Source: Escherichia phage vB_ESM-pEJ01 | DNA length: 64,000 nucleotides | Sequence record: OP114734.1 | Direction: 5' to 3' (one strand) | Part shown: in pieces, positions 1,188 to 60,866 of the stretch | How the letters are laid out: each line of letters begins with the position of its first letter | How positions within the stretch are numbered: the first letter of the stretch is position 1 | Translations under genes and position numbers: made by a program | Notes under the pieces: generated by a model | What the model saw: the letters and a program-made list of their open reading frames with translations, nothing else | The model's database searches: none | What the model was told of the DNA's origin: nothing

Positions 1188-2545
1188 CCCTTCTTAAGTT
1201 CTTTAAGATCTTTCTTATATTCCTTCATTGCGGTCGTCTTTGTCCAATACTCATATTCACTATGATGTTTCTCGGCATCTTTGACCAGTCGATCATACTC
1301 TTCTTGAGTAACGCTATACAATGGCATAGAAACTAGCTTATCGGCGTATGGACGCAGTTTTTCATGTCCATTGATGGATTGCATTACCTCGTCCTTTTTC
1401 TTTCCCTGTAGCTCGATTTCGCCCTTAATTACGCGATCGATAAATTCGGCTTTAGCCATTGCATAATTGTATGCTTCCAGCGTTTCCGCTTGCATCAATT
1501 CAATGCGTTTATCGACATACCCTAATCGGATTTCGACGAATCGACGGATCAGATCGCTCGCTTTCTCGAATACTTCTACTAAACCACGTTCGTTAACTAC
1601 TACGATATTCTGGGCTACTAACTGCGTTAGTTTAAAATCCTTCATGATTTGCTCATGTCGAGCGGATTCATCTTCGCTTTTGAAATAATCGCGTTTCAGT
1701 GTTACTTCAAATCTGAATCCGTCCTTAGAGCAACGGTCATTATACGATACAATCAGATCTTTTTCTTCCAGTGCATCCAGTACCGCTACATATTCTTCAC
1801 GGTCGAACTTATAAGGAACTTCTGATATTGTCAGTTTAGTCTTGCCGTTTAGTTCATATGTACCCTCAAGAATCACACCATCGCGATCATCTCGCGGGAT
1901 AACTTTACCTGTGAATTTCGGGAATTGAACACTAGGTTCTTTATCCAGTTTTCCGGTAAGTGCTAGCTCTGTGCATTCAATAAGGCTTTCCAGTGAATGC
2001 GGTAAAATGTCAGTTTTATACCCTGTAGCAATACCACTAATACCATTAGCCAATACCATTGGCACAACTGGCAAGTAGAAAGCTGGCGGGATGTGTTCCA
2101 GATCTTCGTGCTTAGGTGCGCAATTCATATCTTTATAGATTTTAAAGAAGTTTTCATGCACACGAGCAAAGATATAACGTGCCGCACCTGCTTTCTGGAC
2201 TAAACGCGATCCGAAGTTACCTTGACCGTCAAGCAGTGGAGTATTATTGCTCCATGTATTCGCCATGAGTGATCCGGCTTCTACGGCATTAGTTTCGCCG
2301 TGGTGATAACCCAACTCGGCAACACCAGATCCAATATCTGCCATCTTACGGAATTTCTTACGGTCGCCTTTACTCTTTTGAAGTGCGCACTCCATAACAA
2401 AGCGTTGCACTGGTTTAAGCCCATCCACTAATTGAGGAATCCCGCGTTCCTCGGCAGAATAGATCGCATATTCCTTAGCTTCATTATGTACAATGCTTTC
2501 AAGGCTGCGGTAAGTAACTGATTTATTCATCTTCACCTCATACAC
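1184..2545 (-). CDS. 52: DNA topoisomerase II medium subunit (GyrA-like, T4 gp52 homologue)
   Basis: Motifs DGLKPVQRFV and LLDGQGNFGS characteristic of type IIA topoisomerase A subunit; size matches T4 gp52; true start may be MNKSV.. at ~2530. Confidence 0.9.
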   Translation of the reverse strand: MYEVKMNKSVTYRSLESIVHNEAKEYAIYSAEERGIPQLVDGLKPVQRFVMECALQKSKGDRKKFRKMADIGSGVAELGYHHGETNAVEAGSLMANTWSNNTPLLDGQGNFGSRLVQKAGAARYIFARVHENFFKIYKDMNCAPKHEDLEHIPPAFYLPVVPMVLANGISGIATGYKTDILPHSLESLIECTELALTGKLDKEPSVQFPKFTGKVIPRDDRDGVILEGTYELNGKTKLTISEVPYKFDREEYVAVLDALEEKDLIVSYNDRCSKDGFRFEVTLKRDYFKSEDESARHEQIMKDFKLTQLVAQNIVVVNERGLVEVFEKASDLIRRFVEIRLGYVDKRIELMQAETLEAYNYAMAKAEFIDRVIKGEIELQGKKKDEVMQSINGHEKLRPYADKLVSMPLYSVTQEEYDRLVKDAEKHHSEYEYWTKTTAMKEYKKDLKELKKG

Positions 2546-4780: not shown

Positions 4781-6889
4781 TTAAAATTTAACATTCTTAA
4801 CCAGTTTCATAAAGTCTTGTGCGCGTTTGTCATTATGCAGAATACGATACCAGTTATCGACAATATCATACAGTAACGGGCTATTCTCTTTAAACTTCGC
4901 ACAAACTGCTTTAATTCGTTCGTTTGCTACCGTGAATTTTTCATCACAAATCTTTTTAGTTTCTTCGTCCATAACCCAACGAGTACGAAGGAGTAACTTG
5001 GAAACCTCTTTATTATAATGACGACCGTACAGTCTGTCAATAAATTCTGGAACACAGCGTTCTAGTTCATCGTCATGAAACAACATAGTGATCACACCCA
5101 GATATTCGCCATACCCCAGATGATTGGTCTTAACCTTCTTAGCCAGACCAGCCAGCTTACCGCGAACAAATTCTAGCGCACATTCCAATTGTTCGTCAAC
5201 GAGATATTTTTGTGTCTCGTTTCGAGTAATAATATACTTTGTTACCCCGAAGTAGTCAAGCGCCGTGTGTAATGTATTTTCACTATGGATCGATTTACGA
5301 CTACGGCTTTCGAATGCATCACCTACGCGGAACATGTGCAAGCCTGATAACTCGCGAATCTCTGCCGCTTTCATGTGATGGCTGGTTTTATGCCAACTGT
5401 CACCAATCTTTTCCATGATATACACGTTAGGCAGCTTGGGAGTAGCTTCACGTTGTGTACGCTCGGTCTTCTCCGGTTTAACTGCTTTAGCACGCAGATC
5501 ATCGGCCTCAGACACTTTAATCACGGTCATTTCAGAATCATCATAATACTGTTTGATGTACTCGAAAGTCTCCATATGTTTTTCGTTGCGCTGACGGAAC
5601 ACAAGTACCTTTTTATTGATGCCGTATTCCTGGACCATACCGTTAAGAGTCAGTGCACGCAGTTTCGGTTTATCGGTATCATCAATAAGACACGTAATAT
5701 CTTCTTTATGCATCCATACAAAATGCGTAATGTTGTATTGACTGCTAACGAAAGCAGGGCGCAATTTACTGATTGTGTGACGAGTACGATACAGAGTATA
5801 CACCTGACCTTCTACGTCATTAGGCGAATCTTTACCCGCATTCACAAACTTATTATAGATTGCTACCGGATCATCCCACTGCCCGATCTTACCCATCTTG
5901 CTAATAATATTGCGTTGAGTCGATGAATACTCGCTCATAAATTGCGCAAGTTTACGCTCTGTTTTAATGTTGGCGATCTTCTCTTTAACCTTTTCCAACA
6001 TCATTTCATTGATTTCTGCAATGCGTTTTTCGATGTTCGCTTTAGTCTCAATTGACAAGTGAACTTCTTCACGCGATGGCATCAGGTCCAGATCACCCAA
6101 CTCAAAATTAATGTAAATGGTCTGGTGCTGGCGGTTTACAGCTTCTAACCATGTTCCGCGAACATATTCATACGGGATCGGGTACTGGATCTTACCCATG
6201 ATTGCATATACCACATAGGAATCGTTATCACGCCCATTACAAACATAATAATTATCAAAGCTAGGGAAATAATTAATTTCGATTGCATTGATATTAGGTT
6301 TGTGTTCCCCAAAATGACGCAGTACAAACTGTGCTTCTCGATGCCATGTCTGAATATCTTTCTCTTTCACCGGAATAGTGATTTTCAGACCATTGTCTTC
6401 ATAGGTCGGTTCGTCGAAAATCTGCACCATTTTAGGCATAGAGTTTTGCACAAATGCCGTAAAGCCATAAGCGCGACCATTGTAATAGTTTACGATTGTA
6501 AAGGTGTCAGTGTAGCTATAAGCAGATTTCGCACCTAAACCAAAAGATCCGATATAATCATTAGTCTGGTCTTTGGTTGATTCAAAGTAAACCGTAAACA
6601 GTTGTTCTAATTCTTTCTTAGACGGAATACCAGTACCATAATCACGCACAGAAAAATACGGTTCGATTGCAGTCGGTAAATGAATATCAAACGGACGATC
6701 TAAGGTTCCTGCTTCTTTGTGAGTGTCGGTAGCATTACATGAATACTCACGGACGCAAGCACGCTCACAATATTGATAAGTGTTCTTAGAAAGCACCATA
6801 AAAGCCTTGCTACTTGCTTTCAGAGAAAAATCAACCGCACCGCTCAAGTCACTGCCAAATACTTCCTCATTATCGATATGCATTTTCAT
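4781..6889 (-). CDS. rIIA: rIIA protein (GHKL/Bergerat-fold ATPase N-terminus)
   Basis: 702 aa; GHKL-type motifs (DYGTGIP, GSFGLGAKSAYSYTDTFT); synteny with rIIB and topoisomerase 39. Confidence 0.85.
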   Translation of the reverse strand: MKMHIDNEEVFGSDLSGAVDFSLKASSKAFMVLSKNTYQYCERACVREYSCNATDTHKEAGTLDRPFDIHLPTAIEPYFSVRDYGTGIPSKKELEQLFTVYFESTKDQTNDYIGSFGLGAKSAYSYTDTFTIVNYYNGRAYGFTAFVQNSMPKMVQIFDEPTYEDNGLKITIPVKEKDIQTWHREAQFVLRHFGEHKPNINAIEINYFPSFDNYYVCNGRDNDSYVVYAIMGKIQYPIPYEYVRGTWLEAVNRQHQTIYINFELGDLDLMPSREEVHLSIETKANIEKRIAEINEMMLEKVKEKIANIKTERKLAQFMSEYSSTQRNIISKMGKIGQWDDPVAIYNKFVNAGKDSPNDVEGQVYTLYRTRHTISKLRPAFVSSQYNITHFVWMHKEDITCLIDDTDKPKLRALTLNGMVQEYGINKKVLVFRQRNEKHMETFEYIKQYYDDSEMTVIKVSEADDLRAKAVKPEKTERTQREATPKLPNVYIMEKIGDSWHKTSHHMKAAEIRELSGLHMFRVGDAFESRSRKSIHSENTLHTALDYFGVTKYIITRNETQKYLVDEQLECALEFVRGKLAGLAKKVKTNHLGYGEYLGVITMLFHDDELERCVPEFIDRLYGRHYNKEVSKLLLRTRWVMDEETKKICDEKFTVANERIKAVCAKFKENSPLLYDIVDNWYRILHNDKRAQDFMKLVKNVKF

Positions 6890-7535: not shown

Positions 7536-7581
7536 TCTTAAACGGTTTCATATAAGTCAACCTTTTGTTTTCGATGGGGAC

Positions 7582-7610
7582 ATTATGATATATCCCCGAT
7601 CCAATGTCAA
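7582..7610 (-). promoter_or_regulatory. early-type promoter cassette (-35 TTGACA, 17-nt spacer, -10 CATAAT) with GGGGA/TCCCC hairpin
   Basis: Minus strand TTGACA at 7610..7605 and CATAAT at 7587..7582; followed by conserved leader CATCGAAAACAAAAGG. Confidence 0.55.
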
Positions 7611-22089: not shown

Positions 22090-24768
22090 TTAAATGTCAA
22101 ACAGGTCCGTAAGCGATGCCACCTTTTCATATTGCAGCTTTGCAGCCGTGGTAATGTTCTCCAGTGGTTTGACGAAAGTCTTATTAAACAACAAAGGCCA
22201 GTCCAACCACTTCAACACCTCTGATTCAATTTCTGGAGGAATACGAGTACCAGACAACCAACCAAAACAGATTTCTCCAAACGGATTTCGATCTTTAAGC
22301 GGTACAATCATAACCTTCTCGCCTTCACGAATCGGATCTAGTCCGAATTTTCGAGCATTACGATTATAACACAATACACTCTTAACCGCATACGGACAAC
22401 CCTTAATCGGATACCCGTTTGAATCGCTGTATTTCTGTAGGTTGTTTGCAGATGATACCGCAGCAACATCAAGATAGTCAAGTTTTCTAAATTCTTGCTC
22501 AAAAATACCGTAGTATTCCTGCAATGACTCTTCACCTTCCTGCAACATACGGCGAATACATTCTTTCAGTGATTTCTGACATGCTTTAGGGGTGGAGCTA
22601 CGTTGCGTTTCCAAGCCCATGATTTTTAGCTTAGGTTCAGCAAAGCGCGTTCCTTCCATATCCCAAACATTAAGAGCATAACGCTTTTTGCCAGTCCAGA
22701 ATCCACCGATACCCGCAGATTTCAACGGAGGACCAGCAATTGCCTCACGGTCCATAAACATCAAGTGCTCATAGTTGTTCATGTACTCGCATAACTCGCG
22801 ATATCCCTTGTCGATAATAGGTTCCATTCGATGTTTACCGAAATTATCAAGGAAGTCAACAAGTTTTTCGGTATCGTCGAAACGATCTTCCCCGCCAACC
22901 TTATCAACAACATTGTTAACCAGCACATAAACGGAGTCAGTATCACAATAACGAACATATGCAAAATCGGTTGTTCCGCAAAGCTCGTTTAAGTATTCGT
23001 TAATCTTACGCTCAATCCACTGAATTGCAAGCTGACCGAACAGTGTGATCGCACTAGCGTTACGGAGATCATAAAAACGGAATTTAGGATTCCCCAACGC
23101 ACCATAAAGTGAGTTGATCAAAACTTTTCGAGAAAGCTGGTTTGTATTGCACAAGATCGACTCGTCTTTACATTCTTCCAGCAATTTCTCTAAGGTATCT
23201 TTGCTTAATTCAGAAAGCATCGATTTAAACGCTTCATCGAAGTCGTGACGCACTTCAACGCTATAGCTAATGGTTCCCCCATAAACATGATTTTCATCGT
23301 GTAGAATCGCTTTACATAGTTCAGCATTGCGATCACATGCCAACATCATGTTTTTGTACTGCTTACGCTGATCGAATACCTTTTTAATCTCAATCGGTAC
23401 GATACCATGAATATCTTTTCTATACATCCATCCGTTAGGCGAGCAAGAATACTCATCACTCGGACGTGGTGCAGTTTTATTGATATACTCGTGCATCGGT
23501 GCAGCATCAAAAGATCCAGCGATTGTTTCAGGAGAAATATTAACCTGTCGAATAATAGATGGGTACAGACTTGTTAAGTCAAAGCTCATCATCCAACGGT
23601 AAGCATTTGGCACAGGTTCTTTTACAAATGCGCCTGGATACGTCTGCTTAGGCTGTATCTTATTTTCCGGTACTACTTTACCCTCAGCTTTCAGAGATCC
23701 GAAGATAATAGCATCCCATACTTTCATCGGGTTATAAACATGGTTAAATTTAATCTTTGCATAGAAACATAGACTATACACAAGATCGATAAATCCACGC
23801 TTTTTATCAATCGCCAGCACACGATCAACGTCGCCGATGTTATAATCGATGTAAAGTTGATGGTTGTCATCACGCAATTTCTTTAACGGACCATCATAAT
23901 CAACCTTACCGATTCCTGTCTCATATTCAGCAACATAATCTAACGCATATGTTGGTTGAGTCGTAAAGCTAAATTTCTTGTACAGGTCAATATAATCAAG
24001 GCTTTCGATCCCCATGATCGTAAATGCTTCACGCTCGTTGCCAAAATCATCCTGTGAGATTCTGGATTTAATCTTACCGCACGGGCTTAGACGGTTAGCG
24101 GTTCTACTTCCGAACTTATTACTGATACGTTTAATGATATATGGAATATCGAATGTTTCTGTGTTCCAGCCAGTGAAACCAACGGGTCGGTTTTCCTCAA
24201 AGAATCGGATGTATTCTAACAGCAATTCATCTTCTGTGTCATAGACGTTATAAACAACGCGCTCTACAATATCAGGTCGAAGAATAGACTTGCTTGCTTC
24301 CCAGATTTCACCGTTTTTTCCTTTCAAATCAAATACAAAGAAACGATCATGTACGGAATCATAATGCGTAATTGCATCGATAGGATATTTCGCTTCTTCT
24401 GGTTTAGGAAATTCTGGGGCAGTGACCTCAATATCAACCCATGCTACACGGATTTTATTTCGGTCATATCGAATCTCGCCTTTATACGTATCAGACAGAT
24501 AGGAGATGATAAAATCATCCATCCCTAGTGCCTCCTGCCCCATTTCTCCCATCTTTTTACGCCATTTGTTGGCCTCGTTCATAGATGGGAATTTTTTAGC
24601 AATGCAAGGCTTGCCATAGATATCTTTATAATTCGTAACCATACCAGGCGCGGCATGATGAAATAATGTTGGCGTATATTCAACGTAACGCTCTTGTTCT
24701 TGTCCAGCATCATCAATATAACGCTCGTAGATCTTATCACCTACTCGCTCACATGACAGAAAATACAT
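22090..24768 (-). CDS. 43: DNA polymerase (family B, T4 gp43 homologue)
   Basis: Exo and pol motifs (DIEVT, YGDTDS, KKRYA, SLYPSII); start set to ATG MYFLSC.. with GAAGGAG RBS (track start 24798 is GTG inside leader). Confidence 0.9.
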   Translation of the reverse strand: MYFLSCERVGDKIYERYIDDAGQEQERYVEYTPTLFHHAAPGMVTNYKDIYGKPCIAKKFPSMNEANKWRKKMGEMGQEALGMDDFIISYLSDTYKGEIRYDRNKIRVAWVDIEVTAPEFPKPEEAKYPIDAITHYDSVHDRFFVFDLKGKNGEIWEASKSILRPDIVERVVYNVYDTEDELLLEYIRFFEENRPVGFTGWNTETFDIPYIIKRISNKFGSRTANRLSPCGKIKSRISQDDFGNEREAFTIMGIESLDYIDLYKKFSFTTQPTYALDYVAEYETGIGKVDYDGPLKKLRDDNHQLYIDYNIGDVDRVLAIDKKRGFIDLVYSLCFYAKIKFNHVYNPMKVWDAIIFGSLKAEGKVVPENKIQPKQTYPGAFVKEPVPNAYRWMMSFDLTSLYPSIIRQVNISPETIAGSFDAAPMHEYINKTAPRPSDEYSCSPNGWMYRKDIHGIVPIEIKKVFDQRKQYKNMMLACDRNAELCKAILHDENHVYGGTISYSVEVRHDFDEAFKSMLSELSKDTLEKLLEECKDESILCNTNQLSRKVLINSLYGALGNPKFRFYDLRNASAITLFGQLAIQWIERKINEYLNELCGTTDFAYVRYCDTDSVYVLVNNVVDKVGGEDRFDDTEKLVDFLDNFGKHRMEPIIDKGYRELCEYMNNYEHLMFMDREAIAGPPLKSAGIGGFWTGKKRYALNVWDMEGTRFAEPKLKIMGLETQRSSTPKACQKSLKECIRRMLQEGEESLQEYYGIFEQEFRKLDYLDVAAVSSANNLQKYSDSNGYPIKGCPYAVKSVLCYNRNARKFGLDPIREGEKVMIVPLKDRNPFGEICFGWLSGTRIPPEIESEVLKWLDWPLLFNKTFVKPLENITTAAKLQYEKVASLTDLFDI

Positions 24769-46418: not shown

Positions 46419-47211
46419 AAACTTCCTTAGTATCGGATTTTTTACCCCCGCTACGGTCTAAACAATATGTTTTATCCAGTTCAACAACAGAAATATCATT
46501 ACGTTCGATAAAATCAAGCAAATGGTTGTTAACTTTCCCTTTGTGGTGAGTAACATTGCTTAATCCAAACTTAGTACCGCTAGACATTAATGATTCTATC
46601 CACATGTAGAATTTAATCTCTTCTTCTTCACTCCAGAACTTATTATATTCTGCCGACGTGATCCAATATGGCGGATCAAGGAAAACGAAATCACCTGGCA
46701 AGATCTCGATCTCATCATAACGACCAGACGTAAAACTGATTCGACCGTCTTTGTTTTCTTCCTTAAAATTCAGGACACGCTCTACCGCGTTTTCGTTAAA
46801 AGTCCGTCGGCCAAAATTAGCATTAAATTCGCCCTTCCGGTTGTGGCGGTTAATGTTGCTAAAACTATGCTGAATCAACACAAACAGCGATAACGGATCT
46901 GGATTCTCGTTATACTTCTTACGGAATGTCATGTAAGCGTCTTTATCTTCGCGAGACAAACCATTTTCGGCAATAATACGCTTGATCGTAGAAACCGGAT
47001 CAGGACACTCGTCAATCGCTTTGTACGCGTCAATTAAGCGGTGATCATAGTCATTAGCCAGCACATCCCCTTCGACGTACAGAGACACGCTCAAGCCGCC
47101 ACAGAAGGCATCAACAAAGCGGTTATAGTGCTTAGGGAAATACTTACTAACACTTGGCAATAACTTTTCCTTATTCCCAGTATAGGGAATTAAACCTAAT
47201 GCTTTCTTCAT
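46396..47211 (-). CDS. dam: DNA adenine methyltransferase (Dam)
   Basis: FVDAFCGGLSV SAM-binding motif and DPPY catalytic motif; blocks match T4 Dam. Confidence 0.85.
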   Translation of the reverse strand: MKKALGLIPYTGNKEKLLPSVSKYFPKHYNRFVDAFCGGLSVSLYVEGDVLANDYDHRLIDAYKAIDECPDPVSTIKRIIAENGLSREDKDAYMTFRKKYNENPDPLSLFVLIQHSFSNINRHNRKGEFNANFGRRTFNENAVERVLNFKEENKDGRISFTSGRYDEIEILPGDFVFLDPPYWITSAEYNKFWSEEEEIKFYMWIESLMSSGTKFGLSNVTHHKGKVNNHLLDFIERNDISVVELDKTYCLDRSGGKKSDTKEVYVTNVKI

Positions 47212-47642
47212 TATCCCTTCCTCAAATAAGTTCGCTCAATCTCTACCAGTTCGAAAAATTCTTGCCAATCACACGGAAAATTGCAGTTTCCGAAATGATC
47301 CTCTTTGTAAAGTTCTTTACCGGATGGCAGCTTAATATCTGTTACGCTGTAGTATCCACAACAATCGCAATCACCCTCTGTATATTCTGTTTTAGTCGGA
47401 ATATCCATCATTGCCAGATACAAAGGTACATCGTCTTGCTCAAAGTTCATGTAACCTTCATGGTCGAATGAAACAAAGTTATCATCACCACCGAAAGGGA
47501 TATAATGGTCATAATCTGTTACAGGTTGACCGTGTAATTCCCATTCTACAATTTTAACATTACCGCTAAACTTGATACCCATAATGTCAACAAGAAAATG
47601 AGTATCGTCAATGTAAATCTTACTAGGAGTTGGATAAACCAT
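47211..47642 (-). CDS. hypothetical Cys-rich protein (143 aa)
   Basis: GDCDCCGYY...GNCNFPCD. Confidence 0.4.
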   Translation of the reverse strand: MVYPTPSKIYIDDTHFLVDIMGIKFSGNVKIVEWELHGQPVTDYDHYIPFGGDDNFVSFDHEGYMNFEQDDVPLYLAMMDIPTKTEYTEGDCDCCGYYSVTDIKLPSGKELYKEDHFGNCNFPCDWQEFFELVEIERTYLRKG

Positions 47643-47652
47643 TATATAATCC

Positions 47653-47949
47653 TCATATCTCAGAGAATAGAATCTCTGTTAATCGCACTGACTGCTCTCT
47701 GAATGTTAGCGTATACTCGAAAGGAAAGTCAACACCTAATTTCAAAAGAGAATAGCCTACCGCCTCTTTATGCTTATCAGTTAGGGCGATCCTAACCAAT
47801 TCCCGTTGAATCTCTTTAGGCGGTGAATGGATAGTAACACGGGTATCATGTAATGTCCAGTCACCATTTCGAATTAAGATTAACGGTTTATCGTCATTGA
47901 AGATCACCGACCCCTTTCCGGTCGGTGAGTGTTTTATACTAATCATCAA
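47653..47949 (-). CDS. hypothetical protein (98 aa)
   Basis: ORF. Confidence 0.4.
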   Translation of the reverse strand: MMISIKHSPTGKGSVIFNDDKPLILIRNGDWTLHDTRVTIHSPPKEIQRELVRIALTDKHKEAVGYSLLKLGVDFPFEYTLTFREQSVRLTEILFSEI

Positions 47950-57139: not shown

Positions 57140-57730
57140 TCAATAGCGTTTAGTCTTAAGAATGCCTTTACTCTTTAGATGGTTAGCCTTTTTTAGTACG
57201 TCATCAGCATAACCTAATCCGGCTTTATAGTTCCATCCAGCATTGTAAGAAGCTAGCGCGAGTCGGATATTACCGTTTCGAACATCCAGCCAGTATGCTA
57301 ACTCATCCATCGCGTAGAATGCAGAAACCTCGCGATTCATGATAAAGTTGATAGTCTGGCGATCACTCATTTTAACACCGAGCTTTGCATTTTTCGCTTT
57401 CACCGTTTTAAGGTAATTTTGAAACAATCCATAAGCATGATGATTTTTCTTTGGTGCTAAGTTTGCACCCGCGCTTGATTCTTGCCATGCGATACCCGCC
57501 AGGATGTGGCCTAAACCCTTTCCGTTATAGCGAATATTCGGATGGTCCTTTTTCAACTTACCGCTTTTCTCGAATTGCTCGCCGTATTGATAGGCGAAAT
57601 GTAAATTATCTAGTTGGTGTGCTGTAAAGTTGTCTATCGGCGCTTTTTTGATCGGTGCGCTAGTCGATGCGTGTGTAGCACCAACGGCTAGTGACAGACT
57701 CAATACTATCGCTTTTAGAACTTTTAACAT
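57140..57730 (-). CDS. lytic transglycosylase (SLT domain) with N-terminal signal/SAR-like segment
   Basis: SLT motifs AWQESS, YGLFQ, SYNAGWNY; N-terminus MLKVLKAIVLSLSLAVGATHA rich in small residues. Confidence 0.6.
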   Translation of the reverse strand: MLKVLKAIVLSLSLAVGATHASTSAPIKKAPIDNFTAHQLDNLHFAYQYGEQFEKSGKLKKDHPNIRYNGKGLGHILAGIAWQESSAGANLAPKKNHHAYGLFQNYLKTVKAKNAKLGVKMSDRQTINFIMNREVSAFYAMDELAYWLDVRNGNIRLALASYNAGWNYKAGLGYADDVLKKANHLKSKGILKTKRY

Positions 57731-57815
57731 TAATTTCTCCTGTTTGGCTTAACTTTCTGATTCCATAATATAGCCCTATCACCAGAAAGTCAAGCATTAA
57801 TTTAACCAATTTCCA

Positions 57816-58238
57816 TTATTGGTCTACCTTCAAAACAACCGCCGACATTTTACCCGCCAGTCGTTTTGGATTCTCTATAATCATTCGGCAGCATAGACCG
57901 TGATATGGCTTACCCTCTTCGATTAGATCTACTGTCATCCCGATCCACATGTTACCATCAGTAATTTCTAATCGATTAGGTCGGTCTTCCATTTTCAGGA
58001 AGTCGAAGATCTCCGGCAAACGAGTTTCTATCTTATTGAATAGTTCCATTGTCTTATGTTCATCGATATGACGATCGGTTAGACGGTCGATCATATGCGG
58101 ACTAAAGCGAATGAAAATATACTCACCGTAACCATCATTCAAGCACTTTTCTTTGATCTGCGCATTGGTTTTGCGCATTTCGGTTTCGAAGAATCTACGC
58201 AGCTTACTACGGCGAACATGTACGTTAATTGTTTCCAT
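57816..58238 (-). CDS. regB: RegB-like sequence-specific endoribonuclease
   Basis: RLEITDGNMWIGMTV and LCCRMII..RLAGK parallel T4 RegB; start at METINV. Confidence 0.7.
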   Translation of the reverse strand: METINVHVRRSKLRRFFETEMRKTNAQIKEKCLNDGYGEYIFIRFSPHMIDRLTDRHIDEHKTMELFNKIETRLPEIFDFLKMEDRPNRLEITDGNMWIGMTVDLIEEGKPYHGLCCRMIIENPKRLAGKMSAVVLKVDQ

Positions 58239-58242
58239 TTTA

Positions 58243-58578
58243 TTATCCTTTCTTAAACAAATTGCGAAGCCAGTATACAAACGGGATTTCTTTAAACTTG
58301 AATTTCTCTATAGTTAATTCTTTAGTAGCAAGATGAATACCATAAGCATCATGTGTCACGATATGCCATTTTCTATAGTCCAAATGTGAACAACCGTCTG
58401 GATCTAGGTTAATAAGAGTTTCTCGCTCACTAGGATTATTTTTCCACAATTTTGTAATAGGATCGCACATAATTCGACCTAGCGTACCATGAATAATCTC
58501 ACAACGGTAAAGTTTTCCAGCAGTGAGATAGGCGCACCCGTCATAGTCGGTATAAACAAACACTTCTTTAACACTCAT
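58243..58578 (-). CDS. paralogous small protein (DGC.HL family, two repeats)
   Basis: YDGCAYL and DGCSHLDYRKW; start at MSVKEV after promoter 58607..58635. Confidence 0.45.
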   Translation of the reverse strand: MSVKEVFVYTDYDGCAYLTAGKLYRCEIIHGTLGRIMCDPITKLWKNNPSERETLINLDPDGCSHLDYRKWHIVTHDAYGIHLATKELTIEKFKFKEIPFVYWLRNLFKKG

Positions 58579-58606
58579 TTTAATACTCCTTTGTTTCGAT
58601 GGGGGT

Positions 58607-58635
58607 ATATTACTACCCCCGTTTTGTTGTGTCAA
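58607..58635 (-). promoter_or_regulatory. promoter cassette with GGGGGTA/TACCCCC hairpin over -10
   Basis: TTGACA 58635..58630, 17 nt, TAATAT 58612..58607. Confidence 0.55.
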
Positions 58636-58896
58636 CTACTTTTTCAAGATTTTTTTAATTGCGTTCCAAAGACCTTTATTCTCAGGTTGTTTTGGTTCTT
58701 CGATTAGTGTCCATGTTCGACCGTCTAAGTGTGCACAATTTTTAAGACAAATAAAAATCTGGTGTCCCTTATCATCACGGATATAACCACTATTCGCAAA
58801 TCTTTCATGTGGTGTATATTCATACAGTGTATTTGGTGTAATATACTTGCGGTTACTATAAGGTGTCATCACATACATCATGGTACTAACTCCCAT
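58636..58896 (-). CDS. paralogous small protein (DGC.HL family)
   Basis: YEYTP..GYIRDDKGHQIFICLKNCAHLDGRTW. Confidence 0.45.
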   Translation of the reverse strand: MGVSTMMYVMTPYSNRKYITPNTLYEYTPHERFANSGYIRDDKGHQIFICLKNCAHLDGRTWTLIEEPKQPENKGLWNAIKKILKK

Positions 58897-59072
58897 TTAT
58901 CACCGCGAAGATGAGAACATCCACCATCAAGAAGTATCGTAATACGATAACCTATATCATCTTTGATGTAACCGATTGTCGGTGGATTTTCGTCGTCTCG
59001 TGTCGGGGTAAAATCATACATCTTTCCGGGCGTAATATCTTGTCCTTTATTGCTATTGGTATAAACTTTCAT
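58878..59072 (-). CDS. paralogous small protein (DGC.HL family)
   Basis: YDFTP..GYIKDDIGYRITILLDGGCSHLRGDKW. Confidence 0.45.
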   Translation of the reverse strand: MKVYTNSNKGQDITPGKMYDFTPTRDDENPPTIGYIKDDIGYRITILLDGGCSHLRGDKWELVP

Positions 59073-59093
59073 TTTCTTAATCTCCTATATTAA

Positions 59094-59792
59094 CTAACCA
59101 CGGGTATAGTGTTCCAGAACAACTGTCAGATGAATATATTCTAATAGATCTTTCCAAAAGTCAACATCTGGTTCTTCCGGCATACCGTTTTTCTTTGCCT
59201 CTTCACGCGCGAGTTTAACACGTTCGTAGAGATCTTTCAATTCTTCCCGCACATTATCAAAGGTTCTTTCTCCTAACTTACACGCTAAAATAGAAGAACG
59301 TCGCGCGAGCGGGAATTGTAGATCACCTGTCTGATAGATTTCAAGTAGCTGATAACCAACACGCAGAGCATGAGAAAGATCTTTCCAGTTACTGAAATAC
59401 TTTTCAGATTTGGCTACCTGTTTCTTGAGATAACCAGACAAACCCCACATCCCAACATGATAGAATTTATCGCGATGTGTTCGGATGTATTCCCATTCTC
59501 TGGAGGATTCAATCAACATGTTACTAGGCGCGTGCACCATGTCAATAGCGCCGATATCACCTTTACATGCCAGATTGATAAACCGTTTTAGACTAAACAT
59601 ATTAACGTCAATATCGTCTTTGGTGTTCTTGATACCTTGACCGCTAGTGCTTTGGTCATAGTGTTCTTTCATCGATCCTAAGATAATTTCTTTCGCAGTC
59701 GGAACAAAGATACCACGATAATCTTTATCTGAATTTTCAGTATCAAGGCCGTATAAGTGAGATCCGAAGACCATTTTAACCATTGTATGCAT
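59094..59792 (-). CDS. Pol-beta superfamily nucleotidyltransferase (function unknown)
   Basis: N-terminal FGSHLYGLDTENSDKDYRGIF fits hG[GS]...DhD NTase motif; helical C-terminal domain. Confidence 0.5.
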   Translation of the reverse strand: MHTMVKMVFGSHLYGLDTENSDKDYRGIFVPTAKEIILGSMKEHYDQSTSGQGIKNTKDDIDVNMFSLKRFINLACKGDIGAIDMVHAPSNMLIESSREWEYIRTHRDKFYHVGMWGLSGYLKKQVAKSEKYFSNWKDLSHALRVGYQLLEIYQTGDLQFPLARRSSILACKLGERTFDNVREELKDLYERVKLAREEAKKNGMPEEPDVDFWKDLLEYIHLTVVLEHYTRG

Positions 59793-59810: not shown

Positions 59811-60404
59811 TTAAACGTATTCAGCAACAACATTATGTTTAAAATTACCGCTCCTTTTTGGATTTGGATTTTTCAATCGACTATGTATTAAATTTTTGTT
59901 GTATCCGGTTGCTTTAGACGCTTCGCCAATACTTTGATAAACAACACCATTAACACGAATCGGACGAGACTTATTAAACAGTTTATTCAATCCGGCATCA
60001 TATGCATGGTTTTGGTTTTCTTGCCTCGTTGCGATCTCAAGATTCCAAACACAATTACAAGATTTTACCCCACTTTTATGATTAATTTCAAGACCTTCAC
60101 AATCACCTATAAAGTGTTCAGCAACTAGTCTATGAATATAGCGATATTTCTTACTTTCCCCATCATGCAAGCATACATTATAATAACCATCACCAGCGCG
60201 TTTAGGTCGGAGTAGTTTACCTTTAACACGTTTTATAGTAGGGAACTCACCAAATTGATTTCTCTGGATAAACGGAATCTCGCGGTCTAATGAACGGATT
60301 CGACCATAGTTAGACACTTGATAAAAACTTTCATATCCTTTAATTGGCTTCCATATCTCAGGGATTTCTACACCATCAATAACAACAAGTTTAAATTCTT
60401 CCAT
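59811..60404 (-). CDS. HNH homing endonuclease (NUMOD4-like N-terminus + HNH_3)
   Basis: YQVSNYGRIRSL; HRLVAEHFIGDCEGLEINHKSGVKSCNCVWNLEIATRQENQNH. Confidence 0.8.
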   Translation of the reverse strand: MEEFKLVVIDGVEIPEIWKPIKGYESFYQVSNYGRIRSLDREIPFIQRNQFGEFPTIKRVKGKLLRPKRAGDGYYNVCLHDGESKKYRYIHRLVAEHFIGDCEGLEINHKSGVKSCNCVWNLEIATRQENQNHAYDAGLNKLFNKSRPIRVNGVVYQSIGEASKATGYNKNLIHSRLKNPNPKRSGNFKHNVVAEYV

Positions 60405-60413
60405 ATTTCACCT

Positions 60414-60446
60414 CATAAAAATAAAGCCAACCCTTTCGGATTGGCT
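60414..60446 (-). terminator. rho-independent terminator after GrcA-like gene
   Basis: AGCCAATCC-gaaa-GGGTTGGCT hairpin followed by TTTATTTTTAT. Confidence 0.6.
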
Positions 60447-60452
60447 TGTTGA

Positions 60453-60866
60453 TTACATAGATTCCGTAAAGGTACGGGTGATAATATCAAGTTGTTGTTC
60501 GCGTGTCAAGGCGTTGAAGCGGGTAGCATAACCACTGATTCGAATTGTAAGCTGCGGGTACTTCTCAGGATGTTCAACCGCATCAAGAAGAGTCTCCCGA
60601 CGCAGTACATTCGCGTTGAGATGATGACCCGCGTTACTATTTACCCCGTTATCAATTGCTAAAGGACGGAAGCTAGTTGTGTGCAGTTCCAGCGAATCGA
60701 CGTCTTCTGCGGTGATCACATGATCTTCTGCGAAAGTTTTACTAACAATTACTTTAGCGCCGATCAGTGCTTTCGGTTCGGATACCAGAATCATAGGCGC
60801 GAAATGTCCACCGATAATAGTACCTTTATGCTCACCTTTCATGATTTGAATTGCTTTAAATTCCAT
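60453..60866 (-). CDS. autonomous glycyl radical cofactor (GrcA/YfiD-like, PFL C-terminal domain)
   Basis: C-terminus [44 protein letters not shown] is nearly the GrcA/PflB glycyl-radical signature (RVSGYAVRFNSLT..). Confidence 0.75.

What the first reader, a model, noticed from the sequence alone, without database searches (positions are those of the whole stretch)
58243..59072. Three tandem small paralogues with a DGC(S/A)HL motif
ORFs 58243..58578, 58636..58896 and 58878..59072 share the pattern Y.(F/Y)TP...GYI.DD.G..I.I.L..(G)C.HL.G..W; the first carries the core twice. They lie between regB and the nucleotidyltransferase, and one is fronted by a PeSL-like promoter. This is another locally amplified family of unknown function.
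Basis: seen in the sequence. Interest (0 to 1): 0.45.

Follow-up and report, generated by a model that had tools for sequence, protein, structure and literature searches.

The report
Three tandem small beta-barrel phage genes
Just upstream of the regB gene, this T4-like (RB49-type) phage carries three real, duplicated early genes that each encode a tiny SH3-like beta-barrel of unknown function; they evolve much faster than their neighbours, which is an ordinary pattern for variable accessory genes in these phages.

Summary
The window is a Krischvirus (RB49/Phi1-like phage). On the minus strand, nrdC.11 is followed by C (59072..58878, 64 aa), B (58881..58636, 81 aa), a PeSL early promoter with hairpin, A (58578..58243, 111 aa) and regB. 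The three are significant paralogues: C-B E=8e-13; C-A z=6.9; B-A z=3.9. All three match PHROG 6261 and/or 15978, both of unknown function.

AlphaFold gives one small SH3-like barrel per protein (pLDDT 94.8 for C). A adds two C-terminal helices. "Core twice" in A is a repeated 6-residue motif inside one domain, not a second domain.

The genes are under purifying selection (dN/dS 0.16-0.25) but are far more variable than nrdC.11 and regB (0.04). They also show a replaced barrel allele, a C/B hybrid and a truncated C. Tandem copies recur in an unrelated metagenomic phage and in Bas11.

Most likely they are dispensable, early-expressed protein-binding accessory genes that interact with host or defence proteins; this function is inferred. 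The finding is a new member of a known kind, of modest interest.

The parts
58878..59072 (-). Gene C (RB49p097 orthologue), 64 aa, pI 5.1. A bare SH3-like beta-barrel; the GGCSHL motif is encoded at 58908..58925.
   Evidence: ORF. SD GGAG at 59085..59082. phrog_6261 at 1e-28. AlphaFold pLDDT 94.8. dN/dS 0.25.
58636..58881 (-). Gene B (RB49p096 orthologue), 81 aa, pI 9.3. A barrel plus a short basic C-terminal helix (GLWNAIKKILKK); NCAHL is encoded at 58726..58740. Its start overlaps C's stop as ATGA.
   Evidence: phrog_15978 at 9e-61. 246-nt CDS in GenBank records. dN/dS 0.21 with dS 0.39 and two haplotypes.
58599..58635 (-). PeSL cassette in front of gene A. -35 TTGACA at 58635..58630, 17-nt spacer, -10 TAATAT at 58612..58607. 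Hairpin GGGGGTA (58620..58614) / TACCCCC (58607..58601). AT-rich DNA lies upstream.
   Evidence: (3 pattern matches vs 0.04 expected; two of the three are overlapping readings of this one site, the third is at 7576..7610). Annotated as a promoter in GEC-3S. PeSL definition from PMC2839356. Nearly identical in the divergent locus L024.
58243..58578 (-). Gene A (RB49p095 orthologue), 111 aa. One barrel (residues 5-74) plus two C-terminal helices. Conserved tail KFKFKEIPFVYWLRNLFKKG (residues 92-111). SD GGAG at 58589..58586. The stop lies 4 nt before the regB ATG.
   Evidence: phrog_6261 at 1e-37. Model pLDDT 77. dN/dS 0.16.
58305..58538 (-). Replaceable barrel cassette inside gene A (codons ~14-91). 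It contains the two copies of the motif: DGCAYL at 58525..58542 and DGCSHL at 58381..58398.
   Evidence: The 92% DNA identity to Hadza-gut Krischvirus contigs stops at 58538 and resumes at 58305. The allele there (P0004, 103 aa) is 40% identical. A third allele (P0014) is 28% identical, next to an 88%-identical RegB.
57816..58238 (-). regB (context only): the endoribonuclease gene immediately downstream of A.
   Evidence: PF10715 REGB_T4 hits on the orthologous genes. Annotations.
59094..59792 (-). nrdC.11 nucleotidyltransferase (context only): upstream neighbour, probably co-transcribed with C and B.
   Evidence: PF10127 RlaP hit. Annotations. No promoter-grade site lies between it and C.

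Best explanation
C, B and A are three genuine tandem-duplicated early genes of a Krischvirus hyperplastic region. Each encodes one roughly 60-residue SH3-like beta-barrel. C is the bare, acidic barrel. B adds a short basic amphipathic helix. A adds two helices with a conserved basic tail.

C and B are translationally coupled through an ATGA overlap and appear to be read through from nrdC.11. A has its own sigma-70-type PeSL early promoter and runs directly into regB.

The family is an uncharacterised, mostly acidic set of phage proteins. Its members sit in early or accessory gene arrays of unrelated phages.

Shown: the genes are real, paralogous, barrel-shaped, dispensable in at least one case, and evolve by rapid divergence plus recombinational cassette exchange.

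Inferred: they act as small protein-binding modules made early in infection. They would engage host or host-defence proteins (host take-over, counter-defence or sensor evasion). The barrel would be the variable recognition surface, and the helical tails of B and A a more constant anchoring or partner-binding element.
For: Real genes:
- All three are conserved in all 58 Krischvirus records.
- dN/dS is 0.16-0.25.
- Models are confident.

Paralogy.

Fold:
- Five strands plus a 3-10 helix at CSHL.

Early expression: a PeSL with consensus -35/-10 hexamers. PMC2839356 showed that PeSLs are strong early promoters associated with ORFans.

Arms-race-like evolution:
- Nucleotide identity across 10 phages is 84-97% for C and 78-99.6% for B, against 97-99% for nrdC.11.
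- dN/dS is about 5-fold above that of nrdC.11 and regB, and dS is elevated with discrete haplotypes.
- The A barrel is 40% and 28% identical in alleles that sit next to RegB at 90% nucleotide and 88% amino-acid identity respectively.
- A C/B hybrid gene exists, and C is truncated in FL04.

General accessory role:
- Relatives lie in arrays of small unannotated ORFs near replication genes in unrelated phages.
- None of those loci has regB, nrdC.11 or vs.1 nearby.
- The family median pI is 4.7, which argues for protein ligands rather than nucleic acid.
- The nearest solved structure, Gp54-Bas11, is itself a small non-essential phage protein that binds a host immunity protein (PMC11578894).
Against: - No member of the family has any experimental or annotated function.
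- The host/defence-binding step rests on analogy and on evolutionary pattern only.
- Sequence relation to Gp54 is not significant (hhalign P=0.09).
- Elevated dS and discrete haplotypes could reflect neutral recombination in a hyperplastic region rather than selection.
- dN/dS stays below 1, so positive selection is not demonstrated.
- Promoter activity and transcript timing were not measured here.
Confidence: 0.5

Rival explanations
1. Gene A (at least) is a partner of RegB. It would be a regulator, inhibitor or cofactor encoded immediately upstream, in the way an antitoxin precedes its toxin. The conserved helical tail would contact RegB, and the barrel would be a variable regulatory or targeting domain.
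For: - A stops 4 nt before the regB ATG and carries regB's ribosome-binding site.
- The order B - PeSL - A - regB is kept in a divergent lineage where the A barrel is only 28% identical, the tail motif KF.FKE.PF..WL survives and RegB is 88% identical. The A-regB adjacency is also kept with the 40% allele.
- The tail is predicted helical with low confidence, as for a region that folds on a partner.
- From my own knowledge, not tested here: RegB has a RelE/YoeB-like toxin fold and is toxic when cloned.
Against: - Family members outside Krischvirus-like phages have no regB nearby.
- T4 RegB works without such a neighbour. The T4 slot holds unrelated vs.3, vs.4 and vs.5, and there is no family hit in T4 40-80 kb.
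- Tail conservation between the A and A' alleles is explained by the recombination breakpoint at 58305.
- This idea does not explain B and C.
Confidence: 0.12
2. The barrels are Sm/Hfq-like or OB-like RNA- or DNA-binding proteins that act on early transcripts or on translation.
For: - Small bent-strand barrels include nucleic-acid binders, and weak hits include Spt5 KOW and ribosomal proteins.
- B and A have basic tails (pI 9.3 and 8.3).
- The genes lie next to an RNA endonuclease gene.
Against: - The barrel itself is acidic: C has pI 5.1, the A core 6.25, and the family median is 4.7.
- There is no N-terminal Sm helix.
- No LSM, KOW or S1 Pfam model hits.
Confidence: 0.08
3. The conserved Cys/His (GC.Y ... 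C.HL) forms a metal or redox site, making these small metalloproteins or thiol enzymes.
For: - The second Cys is nearly invariant and the His is frequent.
- Gene A and most distant members carry both Cys.
Against: - B and C lack the first Cys.
- The His is replaced in the A' and A'' alleles (GCVFIH, GCPYID) and in P0039.
- One member has Ser instead of the second Cys (P0032).
- There is no CxxC pair.
- The motif maps to the 3-10 helix that closes an SH3 barrel, which suggests a structural role.
Confidence: 0.05
4. The similarity is chance, or the ORFs are not genes.
For: The ORFs are short, and the B-A pairwise signal taken alone is modest (E=2e-3).
Against: The genes are conserved in 58 genomes, there are 27 representative clusters in 1.84 billion proteins, and the model has pLDDT 94.8.
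Confidence: 0.01

Closest known systems
PeSL-flanked ORFan cassettes of the hyperplastic regions of RB49/phi1-type phages (Arbiol, Comeau et al. 2010, PMC2839356)
   Same: Same phage group and same kind of locus. Small non-essential genes without known homologues, fronted by a sigma-70 consensus promoter with a GGGG...CCCC hairpin. Variation arises by insertion, deletion and replacement through recombination.
   Different: The paper does not mention regB, nrdC.11 or paralogues. Only one PeSL lies inside this cluster, so the A-barrel replacement uses the PeSL/5' end on one side and the conserved tail on the other, rather than two PeSLs. The tandem paralogy itself adds unequal crossing-over, as in the C/B hybrid.
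Gp54 of phage Bas11 (PDB 9AXB; Zhang et al. 2024, PMC11578894)
SH3 / SH3-like small beta-barrel fold
T4 vs.3 / vs.4 / vs.5
   Same: Three small early ORFs in the equivalent slot between vs.6 and regB.
   Different: No sequence relation (HMM E>3). From their sequences they look helical rather than barrel-like, though no structure was predicted for them. They are positional analogues only.

Membership tests
PHROG 6261 / 15978 (phage proteins, function unknown) | Significant full-length match to the family profile | tested here: met
   A 1e-37 and C 1e-28 to phrog_6261. B 9e-61 to phrog_15978 and 6e-6 to phrog_6261. 23 of 24 family members hit phrog_6261.
SH3-like small beta-barrel fold | Five antiparallel strands forming a closed barrel, with a 3-10 helix between strands 4 and 5 | tested here: met
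Canonical SH3 domain (Pfam SH3 families) | Sequence match to SH3 profiles and peptide-binding signature residues | tested here: not met
   No Pfam hit for the three proteins or for 24 relatives.
Gp54-Bas11 family (CapRel SJ46 trigger) | Sequence homology to Gp54 | tested here: not met
   hhalign of the family profile against Gp54 gives P=0.094, probability 0.6%. The HMM scan of Bas11 ORFs does not pick up gene 54.
Gp54-Bas11 family (CapRel SJ46 trigger) | Six-stranded barrel with a prominent beta1-beta2 loop | tested here: not met
   The model has five strands plus a 3-10 helix. The description of Gp54 comes from PMC11578894.
Gp54-Bas11 family (CapRel SJ46 trigger) | Binds and activates CapRel SJ46 | not testable with these tools
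   Needs co-expression toxicity or binding assays.
PeSL regulatory cassette (PMC2839356) | Sigma-70 consensus -35/-10 with an AT-rich upstream region and a G-tract/C-tract hairpin, intergenic, next to an ORFan | tested here: met
   TTGACA-17-TAATAT and a GGGGGTA/TACCCCC hairpin of -15.3 kcal/mol, with AT-rich sequence upstream. Definition.
PeSL regulatory cassette (PMC2839356) | Promoter and terminator activity | not testable with these tools
   Needs reporter fusions or transcript mapping.
Type II antitoxin-like partner of RegB (rival explanation) | Gene immediately upstream of, and co-transcribed with, the nuclease gene | tested here: met
   4-nt gap in the window. The adjacency is kept in L003 and L023.
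Type II antitoxin-like partner of RegB (rival explanation) | Linkage to the nuclease wherever the family occurs; physical neutralisation of the nuclease | tested here: not met
   No regB in 9 distant loci that carry family members. Physical binding is not testable here.
Sm/Hfq-like RNA-binding barrels | N-terminal helix plus Sm1/Sm2 motifs, and a basic RNA-binding face | tested here: not met
   No N-terminal helix. No LSM or Hfq Pfam hit. The barrel is acidic.

The most novel reading that the evidence does not exclude
The paralogues may not be redundant copies but a cooperating set. The order 'bare acidic barrel followed by barrel with a basic helical tail' recurs independently in Krischvirus (C, B, A), in an unrelated 87-kb metagenomic phage contig (three overlapping genes, the last one tailed) and in Bas11 (gp78, gp79).

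They could form a modular system of small beta-barrels, distantly related to Gp54-Bas11, that binds or decoys host immunity sensors. The hypervariable barrel would be swapped between phages as a cassette to track host variation. In Krischvirus, the A tail would couple this to RegB.
Probability: 0.1. Interest if true: 0.65.

Novelty: new member of a known kind. Interest (0 to 1): 0.3.

Why it matters
Taken alone this is a routine case: variable ORFans in a T4-type hyperplastic region. Its practical value is threefold.
- It gives three 'hypothetical proteins' (RB49p095-097 orthologues) a fold and a family, with corrected gene starts.
- It flags a barrel cassette that differs by 60-72% in amino-acid sequence between phages whose neighbouring RegB is about 90% identical. 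Genes with that signature often turn out to be counter-defence factors or defence triggers.
- It links the Krischvirus genes to members in the BASEL phage Bas11, where genetics and defence-system panels already exist and the function could be tested cheaply.

Tried and rejected
- Pfam, NCBIfam and PADLOC scans of the three proteins, and Pfam on 24 relatives and on 10 longer relatives, gave nothing usable. FosA and cyclophilin hits are far below cut-off, and P0016 is a low-complexity artefact.
- A PDB sequence search with the family profile returned only a chance DPP4 blade match at E 0.26.
- Foldseek against the PDB gave no E<0.4. BFVD returned only uncharacterised phage proteins. The AFDB library was unavailable.
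- Word-indexed homologue searches with A and C returned only close relatives. The exhaustive profile search was needed to see the family.
- The search for related loci failed on the broad alignment. With a tighter alignment it found only 4 IMG/VR loci.
- An Rfam scan of 57700..59300 found no RNA family.
- Domain duplication in A is rejected: the model has one barrel. At family level, the N-half and C-half profiles align only at P=0.04.
- A T4 homologue in the syntenic 40-80 kb region is rejected. The rest of T4 was not scanned with the HMM.
- A first guess at the Bas11 accession fetched Bas59 instead.
- Literature searches for the locus tags and for Krischvirus early genes found nothing.

Full report
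**Where the window comes from and how the locus is laid out**

The 2 kb around the finding is 98-99.4% identical to RB49-like coliphages of the genus Krischvirus (Delraymugoa, Phi1, JSE, GEC-3S, RB49). All 58 matching records cover it in full.

All genes here are on the minus strand. In the direction of transcription the order is:
- vs.6/GrcA-like gene (60866..60453)
- an HNH homing-endonuclease gene (60404..59811)
- nrdC.11 nucleotidyltransferase (59792..59094)
- C (59072..58878, 64 aa)
- B (58881..58636, 81 aa)
- a PeSL promoter/hairpin
- A (58578..58243, 111 aa)
- regB (58238..57816)
- vs.1, vs and a macro-domain gene

RB49 names the three genes RB49p097, RB49p096 and RB49p095, all 'hypothetical'.

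**Checking the observation**

The ORFs are there and the similarity is not chance.
- C vs B: BLASTP E=8e-13, 40% identity over 63 residues.
- C vs A: E=1e-4.
- B vs A: E=2e-3.
- Against 2000 shuffles, the Smith-Waterman z-scores are 18.7, 6.9 and 3.9, with 0, 0 and 9 shuffles reaching the real score.
- Independent PHROG profiles tie them together. A and C match phrog_6261 (1e-37, 1e-28). B matches phrog_15978 (9e-61) and also phrog_6261 (6e-6).
- A family HMM scored against all 1053 six-frame ORFs of the window finds these three and nothing else (next best E=1.1).

Three details need correcting.

First, B most likely begins at 58881. That ATG overlaps C's stop codon as ATGA, and GGGAG lies 8 nt upstream. 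The 81-position PHROG profile aligns to residues 6-86 of the longer ORF. Most records annotate 246 nt. The ATG at 58896 is a by-product of the invariant Trp codon of C.

Third, 'the first carries the core twice' is true only for a motif:
- DGCAYL (residues 13-18) and DGCSHL (residues 61-66) sit in a 17-residue internal similarity, SVKEVFVYTDYDGCAYL / SERETLINLDPDGCSHL (z=5.9, 0/2000).
- The alignment with C and B places the first copy opposite their N-terminal loop.
- The predicted structure of A has a single barrel (residues 5-74) followed by two helices.
- At family level, the two halves of the domain resemble each other only at P=0.04.

The PeSL claim is correct.
- Directly after B's stop codon comes TTGACA (58635..58630), a 17-nt spacer and TAATAT (58612..58607).
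- A GGGGGTA/TACCCCC hairpin overlaps the spacer and the -10 hexamer (-15.3 kcal/mol, z=-3.4). AT-rich DNA lies upstream.
- The pattern TTGACA...GGGG...CCCC gives 3 matches in the window against 0.04 expected. Two of the three are overlapping readings of this site, so there are two distinct sites, here and at 7576..7610.
- This matches the published definition of PeSLs (PMC2839356). GEC-3S annotates it as a promoter.

**What the proteins are**

Word-indexed searches found only close relatives. An exhaustive profile search of 1.84 billion representative proteins found 27 clusters at E<1e-3. A second profile round found 37 proteins.

The family consensus is MKVKTDY.GC.YITAGKEYEV ... G.I.DD.G..I.I.L..CAHLDG..WEVVE.
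- Thr5, Tyr19 and Trp60 (numbering of C) are invariant.
- Lys17, Ile36 and Cys52 are nearly invariant.
- Most members are 59-72 aa and acidic, with a median pI of 4.7.
- C has pI 5.1. B (9.3) and A (8.3) are basic only because of their tails; the A core has pI 6.25.

No Pfam, NCBIfam or PADLOC model matches, and no PDB sequence does. Every PHROG hit shared by more than one family member has unknown function; one relative alone gives a marginal hit (E=0.0097) to a PHROG labelled 'virion structural protein'.

AlphaFold2 with a 34-sequence alignment gives a confident model of C: pLDDT 94.8, pTM 0.80. It has five strands, with a 3-10 helix exactly at CSHL.
- Foldseek against the PDB is not significant.
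- Foldseek against BFVD finds only uncharacterised phage proteins.

So the fold is a small SH3-like barrel without a close solved relative.

Gp54-Bas11 is a small, non-essential phage protein that binds and activates the CapRel immunity protein. Its own function is unknown (PMC11578894). I fetched it from the Bas11 genome. Against the family profile it scores only P=0.09, although a local motif is shared: KKGIEITIDLEEMVCYHSGLTWKV against D.G..I.I.L...C.HL.G.W..V. I treat this as a lead, not as membership.

Bas11 does carry true family members elsewhere. These are bas11_0078 (E=1e-9) and the adjacent bas11_0079 (E=5e-4), which has a long helical extension. Relatives of bas11_0078 occur in 67 Drexlerviridae records, all annotated as hypothetical.

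**Evolutionary behaviour**

I compared the window with nine other Krischvirus loci.

| Gene | Nucleotide identity to window | dN/dS | dS |
|---|---|---|---|
| nrdC.11 | 97-99% | 0.036 | 0.09 |
| C | 84-97% | 0.25 | 0.21 |
| B | 78-99.6% | 0.21 | 0.39 |
| A (isolates) | 96-99.7% | 0.16 | 0.07 |
| regB | 90-99.5% | 0.039 | 0.17 |
| vs.1 | 94-99% | 0.13 | 0.07 |

The three genes are therefore under purifying selection and are real genes. They are several-fold less constrained than nrdC.11 and regB. B and C also have high dS and two discrete haplotypes each, which is the signature of allelic exchange.

Further signs of turnover:
- In Hadza-gut Krischvirus contigs the A slot holds a 103-aa allele only 40% identical. 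DNA identity of 92% stops at 58538 and resumes at 58305, so only codons ~14-91 (the barrel) are replaced.
- In a more distant lineage (RegB 88%, Vs.1 81% identical) the order B-like gene, near-identical PeSL, A-like gene, regB is kept. There the A barrel is 28% identical, and the tail KF.FKE.PF..WL is retained.
- All 58 cultured isolates carry the window's A type.
- One metagenomic Krischvirus has a single C/B hybrid gene, with the N-terminal half of C and the C-terminal half of B, in front of A. This is as expected from unequal crossing-over between tandem paralogues.
- Phage FL04 has a truncated C of 31 aa.

Tandem amplification is not unique to Krischvirus. An 87.5-kb metagenomic phage contig has four copies. 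Three are consecutive with overlapping stops and starts, and the last carries a basic helix, SLFDKLKCYLKKLFKVLG.

**Context elsewhere**

Distant members lie in runs of small unannotated ORFs next to replication or nucleotide-metabolism genes (SNF2 helicase, ThyX, DNA polymerase A, primase), which is typical of early/accessory regions. None of nine such loci encodes RegB, NrdC.11 or Vs.1.

T4 has three unrelated ORFs (vs.3, vs.4, vs.5) in the slot between vs.6 and regB. T4 shows no family hit in its 40-80 kb region.

**How it most likely works**

Shown:
- three real paralogous genes
- one barrel each
- a PeSL-type promoter sequence in front of A
- ATGA coupling of C and B
- dispensability of C in one isolate
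- fast divergence with cassette replacement
- occurrence in accessory regions of unrelated phages

Inferred: these are early-made, protein-binding accessory factors that engage host or host-defence proteins. The barrel would be the variable recognition element and the helical tails a more constant element. I put about 0.5 on this.

The main rival (about 0.12) is that A is a RegB partner. In favour are the conserved A-regB adjacency and the conserved tail. Against are the absence of regB near family members elsewhere and the fact that the A/A' tail conservation is explained by the recombination breakpoint.

Nucleic-acid binding (0.08) is disfavoured by the acidic barrel. A metal site (0.05) is disfavoured because B and C lack the first Cys and the His is not conserved. 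Chance similarity is excluded.

**Comparison with what is known, and novelty**

This is a textbook example of the PeSL-associated ORFan cassettes of RB49/phi1 hyperplastic regions (PMC2839356). That paper does not discuss this locus, and I found no paper naming these genes.

The family is already clustered in PHROGs without function. What is new here:
- the demonstration that the three genes are paralogues
- the SH3-like fold
- the hypervariable-barrel/constant-tail structure of A
- the recurrence of tandem sets
- the link to Bas11 genes

I rate it a new member of a known kind, with interest 0.3.

Noticed in passing
window 59811..60404 (-): An HNH homing-endonuclease gene (197 aa) is inserted between the vs.6/GrcA-like gene (60453..60866) and nrdC.11. 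It is present in JK32 and FL04 and absent in RB49 and GEC-3S. A different HNH/homing-endonuclease gene (175-176 aa) occupies the site in JSE and in the Hadza contigs.
   Followed up: partly
window 58305..58538 (-); L003 4035..4247: Only the barrel-coding part of gene A is swapped for a 40%-identical allele in metagenomic Krischvirus genomes. The flanks stay about 92% identical. A third allele (28% identical) occurs in L023/L024.
   Followed up: yes
L025 45..296: A single 83-aa C/B hybrid gene replaces the C and B pair in one metagenomic Krischvirus contig. This looks like unequal crossing-over between the paralogues.
   Followed up: partly
L016 (phage FL04) 2001..2181: Gene C is interrupted: the ORF stops after 31 aa and only a 41-aa remnant is annotated. 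Either C is dispensable or this is a sequencing error.
   Followed up: no
L002 (G2248), H72 (Skers), L015 (JK32): Some GenBank records label gene A, and in G2248 also vs.1, as 'RegB endoribonuclease'. Only the 140-aa gene matches the RegB Pfam family. This looks like annotation spill-over from the neighbour.
   Followed up: partly
window 7576..7610 (-): A second match to the PeSL pattern: TTGACATTGGATCGGGGATATATCATAATGTCCCC.
   Followed up: no
L027 (Bas11) 47025..47653: Bas11 genes 78 and 79 are adjacent members of the same family: a bare barrel, then a barrel with a long helical extension. Gene 80 next to them also looks like a small barrel. By tblastn, 67 Drexlerviridae records carry a gene-78 relative.
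   Followed up: partly
L006 2853..3101 and 5001..5680: An unrelated 87.5-kb metagenomic phage contig has four family copies. Three are in tandem with overlapping stop/start codons, and the last carries a basic amphipathic tail. This mirrors the C, B, A order.
   Followed up: partly
window 59082..59085, 58890..58893, 58586..58589 (-): The ribosome-binding sites of C, B and A all contain GGAG, the motif cut by RegB. regB's own site here is AAGGA. GGAG is common in these phages, so this may mean nothing.
   Followed up: no
L018 (T4) 22800..23557: In T4 the slot between vs.6 and regB holds vs.3, vs.4 and vs.5. These are three small ORFs unrelated to this family, so the slot is variable between genera.
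   Followed up: yes
L014 (JSE) 2192..2461: JSE's gene B is 89 aa. The C-terminal KILKK is replaced by KNLEKVVDTHDRG, so the tail of B is also plastic.
   Followed up: no
window 60424..60447 (-): A strong terminator-like hairpin, AAGCCAATCCGAAAGGGTTGGCTT followed by a T run, lies just after the vs.6/GrcA-like gene. Transcripts reaching nrdC.11, C and B therefore probably start downstream of it or read through it.
   Followed up: no
P0005: An ENA protein joins the first 28 residues of gene A to a MraZ-like sequence. This is most likely an assembly chimera.
   Followed up: no
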